From assembly GCF_009914755.1 (NCBI RefSeq), contig NC_060940.1: a DNA stretch of 64,000 nt. One strand, given 5' to 3'. The notes beneath the pieces are model-generated. The model was not told where the DNA came from and ran no database searches. It worked only from the letters and a program-made list of their open reading frames with translations. Below, piece after piece: positions 33,401 to 34,607 of the stretch. Both the position numbers and the translations under genes were made by a program. This DNA comes from the human T2T-CHM13v2.0 reference genome, Homo sapiens. The number at the start of each line of letters is the position of its first letter. The stretch's first letter is position 1.

Positions 33401-33656
33401 AGGTTGATTTATTTACCCACATGGTGATACTGGGGCCAGGTACCTTCGATGAGGCTGGAGCCTAGAGGTTTAGTAATGTACCCAAAGTCACACAGCCTTC
33501 CATCTGACTGTCAGTGTCAGACCTCATGCAGACCTGGGGCCTCCCAGCCTCATGCTACAGTTGAAGTTTGGGGTGAGTGAGAGTGAAGAGCAGCTGCTCA
33601 CCTTGGGGAAAAATCTTGACTGAACCCTAGTGAAGGGGTTACCTTTAAGTCCCCAG

Positions 33657-34607
33657 TGTTATGGGAAAGGGGTCCTGATCCAGACCTCAAGAAAGGGTTC
33701 TGGGACCTTGCACAGGAAAGAGTTCAGGGTGAGTCCACACAGTAAAGTGAAAGCAAGTTCATTAGAGAAGAAACAGAAGGATGGCTACCTCATTGACAGA
33801 GCAGCCCAGAGGGTGCTGGTTGGCTATTTTTATGGTTATTTCTTGATCGTGTGCTAAACGAGGGGTGGATTATTTATGCGTTTTCCAGGAAGGGGGTGGG
33901 CAATTCCTGAAACTGAGGGTTCCTCTCCTTTTTAGACCATATAAAACCAAGGGTGACTTCTGGAACATTGCCCTGGCATTTGTAAACTGTCACGGCGCTG
34001 GTGGGAGTGTCTTTTGGCATGCCAATGCATTATAATTAGCATATAATGAGCAGTGAGGACAACCAGGGTTGTTTTGTTCACCATCTTGCTTTTGGCAGGT
34101 TTTGGCTAGCTTCTTTACTGCATCCTATTTTCATCAGCGGAGTCTTTGTGACCTGTATCTTGTGCTGACCTCCTATCTCATCCTGTGACTAAGAATGCCT
34201 AACCTAGGCTGGATGTGGTGGCTGACGCCTGTAATCCCAGCACTTTGGAGGCTTAGGCAGGCAGATCTCTTGAGCTCAGGAATTTGAAACCAGCCTGGGT
34301 AACATGGTGAAACCCTGTCTCTAAAAAATATACAAAAACTAGCTGAGTGTGGTGGTGCATGCCTGTAGTCCCAGCTACTTGCGCTGCTGAAGTGGGAAGA
34401 TCGCTGGAGCCCAGGAGTTCAAGGCTGCAGTGAGCTGTGATGGCGCCACTGCACTCCAGCTTGGGTGACAAAGTGAGACCTGTCTCAAAATAAACAAACA
34501 AAGAATAAGAATTCCTAACCTTCTGGGAATGCAGCCCAGCACGTCTCAGCCTCATTTTACCCAGCACCTATTCAAGATGGAGTTGCCCGGTTCAAACACC
34601 TCTGACA
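33657..34607 (-). mobile_element. MER41B-like ERV1 solo LTR, interrupted by an Alu
   Basis: Minus strand starts TGTCAGAGGTGTTTGAACC and ends GGTCTGGATCAGGACCCCTTTCCCATAACA. Internal blocks (CTCACTGCTCATTATATGCTAATTATAATGCATT, GACACTCCCACCAGCGCC) match the MER41 consensus as recalled. Confidence 0.88.
34207..34506 (+). mobile_element. Alu inserted in the MER41 LTR
   Basis: Full-length; TSD aagaat(g/t)cctaacct at 34191-34205 and 34507-34521. Confidence 0.95.

What the first reader, a model, noticed from the sequence alone, without database searches (positions are those of the whole stretch)
33602..34607. Sense MER41B LTR configured as a possible interferon-inducible promoter or enhancer of SMPD3
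Seen: the solo LTR lies on the SMPD3 strand 3.2 kb upstream of exon 2. It keeps a perfect GAS motif TTCCAGGAA (33883-33891) and a degenerate partner TTCCTGAAA (33904-33912). Its poly(A) hexamer reads AATGAA instead of AATAAA (33758-33763). Two minus-strand donors follow the LTR end: AAG|GTAACC (33643) and AAG|GTGAGC (33602). Known: MER41B copies with tandem GAS sites act as STAT1-bound, IFN-gamma-inducible enhancers (for example at AIM2), and nSMase2 acts in cytokine signalling and exosome release. Inference: a primate-specific IFN-gamma input to SMPD3, possibly as an LTR-initiated first exon that splices to exon 2 and keeps the full CDS. The lost poly(A) signal would also avoid truncating the host transcript.
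Basis: partly seen in the sequence, partly recalled or inferred. Interest (0 to 1): 0.72.

Follow-up and report, generated by a model that had tools for sequence, protein, structure and literature searches.

The report
Old MER41 solo LTR in SMPD3
This is a real but ordinary remnant of a roughly 40-60-million-year-old retrovirus sitting in the first intron of SMPD3; it keeps one intact interferon-response motif like most of its relatives, and nothing available here shows that it controls the gene.

Summary
Window 34607-33657 (minus strand, same as SMPD3) is a solo LTR, about 635 bp of its own sequence. It belongs to a large dispersed family and both flanks are single copy. It fits MER41B: the two GAS positions lie 21 bp apart, and it keeps the 43-bp segment that sister copies lack. 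Pairwise K2P distance to 29 relatives is 0.197, which gives about 45 My, range 39-66. Print says 45-60 My.

The perfect GAS is not special. 27 of 29 relatives keep at least one perfect site, and 10 keep both. This copy keeps one.

The hexamer is AATGAA, where 22 of 29 relatives have AATAAA. Both donors are real. No RefSeq SMPD3 model (0 of 13) starts in the LTR, and no enhancer feature lies on it.

One paper reports IFN-gamma induction of SMPD3 in human but not mouse osteoblast cells. The regulatory idea remains untested. A promoter role is unlikely and an enhancer role is possible.

The parts
33657..34607 (-). Solo LTR of the MER41 family, B type (TG...CA), including the nested Alu; own length about 635 bp
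   Evidence: Both flanks are single copy.
34506..34607 (-). LTR 5' piece (102 bp, ends with one copy of the Alu target duplication)
   Evidence: 39 other matches at 88-94% identity. K2P 0.155 to 23 relatives.
34206..34505 (+). Alu insertion with A-rich tail, antisense to the LTR and to SMPD3
   Evidence: two sub-threshold Metazoa_SRP halves on the + strand; 12,124 first-look candidates, best 82-86% identity; 4 CpG left.
34190..34205 (-). Second copy of the 16-bp Alu target duplication (the first is 34506-34521); 1 mismatch between them
   Evidence: In relatives the matches to the two LTR pieces overlap by 16 bases.
33657..34205 (-). LTR 3' piece (549 bp) holding the GAS pair, TATA-like stretches, poly(A) hexamer and U5
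   Evidence: 38 other matches at 79-82% identity. K2P 0.197 to 29 relatives.
33904..33912 (-). 5' GAS position, TTTCAGGAA on the LTR strand: one mismatch to TTCNNNGAA
   Evidence: 19 of 29 relatives have a perfect TTCNNNGAA here; 1 of 29 has the same form as the window.
33883..33891 (-). 3' GAS position, TTCCTGGAA: perfect palindromic GAS
   Evidence: 18 of 29 relatives are perfect and 11 of 29 are identical to the window. Start-to-start spacing is 21 in 28 of 30 sequences.
33824..33836 (-). TATA-like stretch shared with relatives, 61-73 nt upstream of the poly(A) hexamer (possible U3 promoter; inference)
   Evidence: 7 of 29 relatives are identical, with 19 distinct forms in all.
33758..33763 (-). 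Poly(A) hexamer position, AATGAA
   Evidence: AATAAA in 22 of 29 relatives, AATGAA in 1 of 29.
33742..33753 (-). IRF-like TTTCACTTT just after the hexamer, shared with relatives
   Evidence: 14 of 29 relatives are identical over the 12 bases.
33637..33645 (-). Donor-like AAG|GTAACC in unique flank, 7 of 9 to MAG|GTRAGT
33596..33604 (-). Donor-like AAG|GTGAGC in unique flank, 8 of 9
   Evidence: annotated SMPD3 donors score 6-8.
32879..32998 (-). LTR-independent alternative promoter and first exon: TATTTAAG (32998-32991) 27-34 nt upstream of the Gnomon first exon 32964-32879. This is the nearest modelled start, 693 bp below the LTR end.
   Evidence: It lies inside the RefSeq H3K4me1 hESC enhancer 32689-33516.
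30425..30486 (-). SMPD3 exon 2 (non-coding), the common acceptor of all modelled first exons

Best explanation
The region is an ordinary solo LTR of the gammaretrovirus-like MER41 family (ERV1, HERVW9 group; B-type subfamily). It integrated in sense orientation into SMPD3 intron 1 roughly 40-60 million years ago. The provirus was lost by LTR-LTR recombination, and an old Alu later split the remaining LTR.

It has decayed at the family's usual rate. It still carries the family's inherited tandem STAT1 (GAS) module, with one site perfect and one a single mismatch off. Its poly(A) hexamer is non-canonical, which fits a sense-oriented intronic LTR being tolerated.

Shown: identity, boundaries, solo state, relative age, motif states, and the absence of annotated LTR-derived transcripts.

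Inferred: most probably it is a passenger with little or no effect on SMPD3. If it does act, the likelier route is a conditional STAT1-bound enhancer, 0.9 kb upstream of the TATA-box alternative promoter at 32964, rather than a promoter that supplies a first exon.
For: Family and boundaries: 3,784 first-look candidates, 39 scored, 38 others at 79-82% identity. The 5' piece gave 1,504 candidates. Termini are TG...CA, and relatives show a 4-bp target duplication (11 of 23 exact, 5 more at 3 of 4). Both flanks are single copy.

Subfamily: the tandem GAS positions are 21 bp apart, as printed for the MER41B consensus (Schmid & Bucher). 6 of 29 copies picked by the 5' piece alone carry a 41-43-bp deletion over both GAS positions. 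That matches the printed MER41A/MER41B difference, and the window copy keeps the segment. Print places these LTRs with MER41-int, ERV1, HERVW9 group.

Age: K2P is 0.197 to 29 relatives, against 0.200 among the relatives themselves. The nested Alu is itself only 82-86% identical to its best relatives. Print gives 45-60 My.

Ordinariness: 27 of 29 relatives keep at least one perfect GAS. In a second sample, 13 of 14 copies that keep the segment do so.

No promoter evidence: 0 of 13 SMPD3 models start in the LTR. There is no enhancer feature on it and no CpG island.

Base rates in print: 292 STAT1 sites across all MER41 in HeLa, and under 18% occupancy even for top-scoring sites. 327 of 1,687 captured MER41 overlapped any ChIP peak.
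Against: IFN-gamma raised SMPD3 mRNA 2.7-fold in human primary osteoblasts and had no effect on Smpd3 in mouse MC3T3-E1 cells (passages read). A primate-specific input would predict exactly that.

The perfect GAS, the 21-bp partner, an IRF-like motif and a strong donor 55 nt past the LTR end are all present.

Sense-oriented intragenic copies are rare among relatives (1 of 8 intragenic), so this copy's survival with a non-canonical hexamer could reflect more than drift.

RefSeq features cover few cell types and no IFN-treated cells. Supplementary tables of the MER41 papers, which may list this copy, were closed.

The copy's own 4-bp target duplication matches at only 2 of 4 positions.

The subfamily was not checked against a Dfam or Repbase model.
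Confidence: 0.68

Rival explanations
1. IFN-gamma-inducible enhancer. Activated STAT1 binds the remaining perfect GAS, perhaps with the one-off partner 21 bp away. This raises transcription from the TATA-box alternative promoter 0.9 kb downstream (32964) or from the exon-1 promoter, giving primates an interferon input to SMPD3.
For: B-type MER41 with the inherited GAS module. As a class, MER41B shows almost 20-fold STAT1 tag induction, and it is the subfamily most enriched in IFN-stimulated enhancers in trophoblast stem cells. SMPD3 was induced 2.7-fold by IFN-gamma in human but not mouse osteoblast cells. The nearest modelled start has its own TATA box 919-948 bp below the GAS pair.
Against: Only a minority of copies are bound. 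One of the two sites is imperfect here, whereas 10 of 29 and 9 of 14 relatives keep both. No enhancer annotation lies on the LTR, and a repressive tile overlaps its 5' part. No paper links MER41 or a solo LTR to SMPD3 (0 papers). The human/mouse comparison is primary cells against a cell line.
Confidence: 0.17
2. LTR-initiated alternative first exon. Transcription starts in the LTR, reads through the weakened poly(A) hexamer, and splices from 33643 or 33602 to exon 2 at 30486.
For: AATGAA sits where 22 of 29 relatives have AATAAA. The donors score 7 of 9 and 8 of 9, as good as annotated SMPD3 donors. The CDS starts in exon 3, so it would be kept whole.
Against: 0 of 13 RefSeq/Gnomon models use it, although other internal starts at 30513, 30680, 32964 and 41696 are modelled. 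The LTR is CpG-poor and has no promoter or CAGE feature. The LTR's start site is inferred only. Donor-like sites are common, 2.2 per kb at 7 of 9 or better.
Confidence: 0.03
3. Constitutive placental or trophoblast enhancer, bound by GATA2/3 and MSX2 as described for many MER41 copies, and independent of interferon.
For: MER41A/B/C/D are enriched in placental enhancers, and a distinct set is constitutively active in trophoblast stem cells (passages).
Against: There are no data for this copy, those motifs were not tested here, and the supplements are closed.
Confidence: 0.05
4. Weak repressive element, as the RefSeq 'silencer' tile over 34333-34627 suggests.
For:: RefSeq silencer feature, 'K562 Repressive non-DNase unmatched - State 22:ReprW'.
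Against: The tile is mostly Alu plus the LTR 5' piece and excludes the GAS core. It comes from a single cell line and a reporter-type annotation.
Confidence: 0.05

Closest known systems
MER41B LTRs (ERV1; internal part MER41-int; HERVW9 group), about 1,600 of 7,190 MER41 copies in print
   Same: Length is about 635 bp, against 621-646 bp for relatives. Termini are TG...CA. It shows 79-82% identity to many copies. The tandem GAS positions are 21 bp apart. It keeps the 43-bp segment missing from A-type copies. Divergence fits 45-60 My (print).
   Different: It is split by an Alu. One GAS is imperfect. The hexamer is non-canonical. It lies in sense orientation inside a gene, which is rare among relatives (1 of 8 intragenic). 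No Dfam or Repbase model was available to confirm the subfamily.
MER41.AIM2, the STAT1-bound IFN-gamma enhancer upstream of AIM2 (Chuong et al. 2016, seen only through other papers)
   Same: Both have a tandem GAS pair 21 bp apart inside a recognisably homologous core, upstream of a host start site.
   Different: It is only 61-65% identical to this clade over about 230 bp. It belongs to a small separate group (30 candidates). Both of its GAS sites are perfect. Print puts it 220 bp from the start site, against 0.9 kb or more here. The function of the SMPD3 copy is untested.
MER41A LTRs
   Same: They share the 5' 100 bp (88-94% identity) and most of the body.
   Different: A-type copies lack 41-43 bp covering both GAS positions (6 of 29; 8 of 22). 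The window copy has that segment.
LTR-derived alternative promoters of host genes (for example LTR12C at GBP2/GBP5, named)
   Same: A sense LTR lies upstream of a non-coding exon that leads to an intact CDS, with donors available.
   Different: No transcript model or start-site feature lies in this LTR.

Membership tests
Retroviral solo LTR | TG...CA termini, with boundaries shared by many dispersed copies | tested here: met
   it starts TGTCAG at 34607 and ends AACA at 33657, and relatives start and end at the same columns.
Retroviral solo LTR | Short target-site duplication flanking the LTR (4 bp in this family) | tested here: inconclusive
   11 of 23 relatives are exact and 5 match at 3 of 4. 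The window copy reads GTGT / CTGG, 2 of 4. At about 10% change per site this is not rare, but the duplication is not intact.
Retroviral solo LTR | No internal proviral sequence on either side | tested here: met
   557 and 593 bases of flank match only themselves in the genome.
Retroviral solo LTR | The same LTR type flanks a provirus elsewhere | tested here: inconclusive
   Two clade LTRs lie 9.2 kb apart on chr19 with flanks ATAC/ATAT and K2P 0.159. However, 7 open pieces from its 5' half gave 0 Pfam hits.
MER41B subfamily | Two GAS sites in tandem, 21 bp centre to centre (Schmid & Bucher 2010) | tested here: met
   centres at 33887 and 33908. Spacing is 21 in 28 of 30 aligned sequences. One site is perfect and one is a single mismatch off.
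MER41B subfamily | Presence of the 43-bp segment deleted in MER41A (print) | tested here: met
   6 of 29 independent copies lack 41-43 bp over piece-B positions of about 284-326. The window copy and all 29 closest relatives keep it.
MER41B subfamily | Best match to the curated MER41B model (Dfam/Repbase), rather than D, E, F or G | not testable with these tools
   No repeat library was on hand. Indirect evidence: print lists only B (1,069 kb) and E (135 kb) with the 21-bp tandem. The window's clade is large (3,784 candidates), whereas the other tandem-bearing group found is small (30 candidates).
ERV1 / HERVW9 group (MER41-int) | Gamma-like core gene (pol) linked to this LTR type | tested here: inconclusive
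   0 of 7 open pieces matched Pfam. The assignment rests on print (Kojima 2018 Table 4, Vargiu 2016).
IFN-gamma-inducible MER41 enhancers | Induced STAT1 occupancy and H3K27ac on the copy | not testable with these tools
   No ChIP data are reachable and supplements are closed. RefSeq shows no enhancer on the LTR.
IFN-gamma-inducible MER41 enhancers | Neighbouring gene induced by IFN-gamma | tested here: inconclusive
   one paper reports a 2.7-fold rise in human osteoblasts and none in a mouse line. SMPD3 did not surface as a classic interferon-stimulated gene in the listings (listings only).
LTR-derived alternative promoter | Transcripts whose 5' end lies in the LTR and which splice into the host gene | tested here: not met
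   0 of 13 SMPD3 models; no promoter or CAGE feature. This covers annotation only; no reads were available.

The most novel reading that the evidence does not exclude
A primate-specific MER41B GAS module, 0.9 kb upstream of a TATA-box alternative SMPD3 promoter, gives human SMPD3 (nSMase2) an IFN-gamma/STAT1 input that rodents lack. This would couple interferon signalling to ceramide production, mineralisation and exosome release, and would explain the human-only induction reported in osteoblasts.
Probability: 0.1. Interest if true: 0.55.

Novelty: new member of a known kind. Interest (0 to 1): 0.3.

Why it matters
If the LTR does confer interferon inducibility on SMPD3, it would add a lipid-signalling and vesicle-release enzyme to the set of primate-specific MER41-wired interferon targets. 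It would also caution against using mouse models for cytokine control of nSMase2.

As the evidence stands, this is one of well over a thousand similar copies, and its motif content is what neutral decay predicts. Its main value is as a cleanly delimited, dated and named repeat, with a specific hypothesis that public ChIP, CAGE and RNA data could settle cheaply.

Tried and rejected
1. Naming by direct comparison with the AIM2 element. I fetched 20 kb around the AIM2 5' region. Ordinary blastn found nothing at E of 1e-5 or better. A loose search found a 53-bp match over the GAS core. The element holds the only 21-bp-spaced tandem in the 20 kb. It is 61-65% identical to this clade (17 of 30 sequences gave any hit) and belongs to a small separate group. 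I rejected it as a subfamily comparator. It supports family-level kinship only.

2. Core-gene naming. Two stretches (3.05 kb in all) from the 5' half of the chr19 provirus gave 7 open pieces on the proviral strand. Each was searched separately and gave 0 Pfam hits at E of 0.01 or better. I stopped there and did not fetch further 3', to stay clear of any envelope region. I cannot say which genes those stretches hold.

3. Poly(A) loss as an adaptation of sense intronic copies. Only 1 of 29 relatives is sense-intragenic, and it keeps AATAAA. That is too few to test.

4. Selection on the GAS. Retention in relatives (18 and 19 of 29 per site) matches neutral expectation at about 10% change per site. 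I found no signal of constraint and no way to test a single locus.

5. Other MER41 copies in the window: none. CpG island at the LTR or at the 32964 start: none. Known RNA families: only sub-threshold hits inside the Alu.

6. Literature. 'MER41'+'SMPD3' gave 0 papers and 'SMPD3'+'solo LTR' gave 0 papers. Searches on SMPD3 with interferon-stimulated gene, STAT1/IFN-gamma, and nSMase2/interferon-gamma/STAT1 were read as listings only, except PMC9464860. 'SMPD3 promoter' was read as a listing only. Chuong et al. 2016 was not seen: the id I recalled is not held.

7. Orthologous presence in other primates was not testable, because no primate genomes are reachable.
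Full report
WHAT IS THERE

Read on the minus strand (the SMPD3 strand), the sequence from 34607 to 33657 begins TGTCAG and ends AACA. I searched the reference genome with the 3' part (34205-33640). That gave 3,784 first-look candidates, of which 39 were scored. 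The 38 other than self are 79-82% identical, and most stop matching at query base 549, which is window 33657. The 5' part with 33 bases of flank gave 1,504 candidates, 40 scored. The 39 others are 88-94% identical and mostly start matching at query base 33-34, which is window 34607.

The true end is 33657, and 33602-33656 with both donors is host flank. Flanks of 557 and 593 bases match only themselves, so this is a solo LTR.

It is bounded by a 16-bp duplication (34521-34506 and 34205-34190) with one mismatch. In relatives the two LTR pieces overlap by those 16 bases and are contiguous. The insert gives two sub-threshold signal-recognition-particle RNA (Rfam Metazoa_SRP) halves on the plus strand. 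It also has 12,124 first-look candidates in the genome at 82-86% best identity. It is an old Alu, antisense to the LTR. I always analysed the two LTR pieces separately.

FAMILY

Print gives three usable markers.

- The MER41B consensus has two high-scoring GAS sites 21 bp apart. Only MER41B (1,069 kb of genome) and MER41E (135 kb) are listed with that spacing, and MER41A is not (Schmid & Bucher 2010: passages, section 8 in full).
- MER41A differs from MER41B by a 43-bp deletion that removes the STAT1 motif (review PMC9963469, passages).
- MER41A, B, D, E, F and G are the LTRs of MER41-int, in ERV1, group HERVW9 (Kojima 2018 Table 4; Vargiu 2016; passages only).

In the window the two GAS positions are centred at 33908 and 33887, 21 bp apart. 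28 of 30 aligned sequences share that spacing. I also took 29 copies chosen only by similarity to the 5' 102 bp, so unbiased for the GAS region. Six of them carry a 41-43-bp deletion covering exactly both GAS positions. By a second count, 8 of the 22 whose alignment spans the sites lack them. The window copy and all 29 of its closest relatives keep the segment.

The other tandem-GAS group I met, the element upstream of AIM2, is small (30 candidates). It is only 61-65% identical to this clade. The window copy therefore belongs to the large tandem-GAS group with an A-type sister, which fits MER41B. No Dfam or Repbase model was available, so I put the subfamily at about 0.85 and the family at above 0.95.

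The core-gene route failed. Seven open pieces from the 5' half of a chr19 provirus flanked by two clade LTRs gave no Pfam match. I did not go further 3'.

AGE

The Kimura two-parameter (K2P) distance of the 3' piece to 29 relatives averages 0.197, range 0.174-0.216. The relatives among themselves average 0.200. The copy is therefore a typical member of a star-like burst. Half the distance is 0.0985. At 2.2e-9 substitutions per site per year (a rate I recall, not from a call) that gives about 45 My. Rates of 1.5-2.5e-9 give 39-66 My. Without CpG sites the distance is 0.178, about 40 My.

The short 5' piece gives 0.155 (23 relatives). The two chr19 LTRs differ by 0.159, about 36 My for that integration. 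The nested Alu keeps only 4 CpG and is at best 86% identical to other Alus. It is itself tens of millions of years old, and the LTR must be older.

Print gives 45-60 My, anthropoid primates. Orthology in other primates could not be checked here.

MOTIFS AGAINST THE FAMILY BACKGROUND (29 closest relatives)

| Position | Window copy (LTR strand) | State in the 29 relatives |
|---|---|---|
| 3' GAS | TTCCTGGAA | 11 identical; 18 a perfect TTCNNNGAA |
| 5' GAS | TTTCAGGAA, one mismatch | 19 perfect |
| Poly(A) hexamer | AATGAA | 22 AATAAA; 1 AATGAA |

Taking both GAS sites together, 10 relatives keep both perfect, 17 keep one and 2 keep none. In the unbiased sample, of the 14 copies that keep the segment, 9 have both perfect, 4 one and 1 none. 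The window copy is in the common 'one perfect' class, and holding a perfect GAS does not distinguish it. At about 10% change per site, six constrained bases survive about half the time, which is what the relatives show.

A TATA-like stretch (33836-33824) and an IRF-like TTTCACTTT (33753-33742) are shared with relatives (7 and 14 of 29 identical). The LTR's start site is not known to me from any call.

DONORS AND TRANSCRIPTS

| Site | Sequence | Matches to MAG\|GTRAGT |
|---|---|---|
| 33643 | AAG\|GTAACC | 7 of 9 |
| 33602 | AAG\|GTGAGC | 8 of 9 |
| 13 annotated SMPD3 donors | various | 6-8 of 9 |

The window's minus strand has 21 sites at 8 of 9 or better (0.33 per kb) and 138 at 7 of 9 or better (2.2 per kb). 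The 33602 site is a good donor, and its nearness to the LTR is mildly unusual, but it is host sequence and was noticed after the fact.

RefSeq lists 13 SMPD3 models (12 mRNAs and one non-coding transcript). Their first exons begin at 92330, 41696, 32964, 30680 or 30513, and none begins in the LTR.

The nearest modelled start, 32964, has its own TATTTAAG 27-34 nt upstream. It lies in an H3K4me1 feature at 32689-33516, and the GAS pair sits 919-948 bp above it. No enhancer feature lies on the LTR. A K562 'silencer' tile (34333-34627) covers the Alu and the LTR 5' piece. The LTR is CpG-poor (observed/expected 0.21) and there is no CpG island nearby.

FUNCTION

- MER41B as a class shows almost 20-fold induced STAT1 tags.
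- MER41B is the subfamily most enriched in IFN-stimulated enhancers of trophoblast stem cells.
- One paper found SMPD3 mRNA up 2.7-fold (p<0.001) after IFN-gamma in human primary osteoblasts, with no effect on Smpd3 in mouse MC3T3-E1 cells (PMC9464860, passages).

Evidence against:
- Only 292 STAT1 sites fell in all MER41 in HeLa, and even top-scoring sites were occupied under 18% of the time.
- 327 of 1,687 captured MER41 overlapped any ChIP peak, and most had none.
- This copy has lost one of its two perfect sites.
- No paper in the library joins MER41 or a solo LTR with SMPD3 (0 papers each). Supplements that might list it were closed.
- The AIM2 precedent is a distant relative much closer to its start site.

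My estimates are: passenger with little or no effect, about 0.68; interferon-inducible enhancer of SMPD3, about 0.17; LTR-initiated first exon, about 0.03; placental enhancer or weak repressive element, about 0.05 each.

VERDICT

The naming as MER41B is well supported without a repeat library. The age is about 40-60 My.

The regulatory interpretation is a reasonable hypothesis of a known kind that these tools cannot test. The promoter half of it runs against the annotation.

Interest is low to moderate.

Noticed in passing
window 32879-32998 (minus strand): TATTTAAG lies 27-34 nt upstream of the Gnomon alternative first exon 32964-32879 (XM_054313413.1), inside a RefSeq H3K4me1 feature. This is an LTR-independent internal SMPD3 promoter, 693 bp below the LTR end.
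   Followed up: partly
L032 6337-6560 (chr1:158214336-158214560, minus strand): The tandem-GAS element upstream of AIM2 belongs to a small separate group (30 candidates, 69-79% identity). It is only 61-65% identical to the SMPD3 copy's clade. A review calls it MER41B, but its group size fits the small 21-bp-tandem subfamily (MER41E) in Schmid & Bucher's table. This is unresolved.
   Followed up: partly
chr19:45306497-45316363 (L002, L018, L033, L034): Two clade LTRs lie 9.2 kb apart on one strand, with outer flanks ATAC/ATAT and K2P 0.159. This is an old provirus whose 5' half gave no recognisable protein domain in 7 open pieces.
   Followed up: partly
window 34333-34627: A RefSeq 'silencer' tile (K562 repressive state) covers the Alu and the LTR 5' piece but not the GAS core.
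   Followed up: no
window 34206-34488: Sub-threshold Rfam hits to mir-3135, mir-1268 and mir-1285 all fall inside the Alu. They are Alu-derived look-alikes, not microRNA genes.
   Followed up: no
L059 (chrY:2275992-2276094) and L061 (chrX:2212188-2212290): These gave identical match patterns: the same MER41 copy in the pseudo-autosomal region.
   Followed up: no
L007 and L028 flanks: A second, partial LTR copy lies a few hundred bases from the first in each locus.
   Followed up: no
29 relatives L002-L030: Orientation bias: 21 are intergenic, 7 antisense within protein-coding genes and 1 sense (in CRACD, with AATAAA kept). Sense intronic copies like the SMPD3 one are the rare class.
   Followed up: partly
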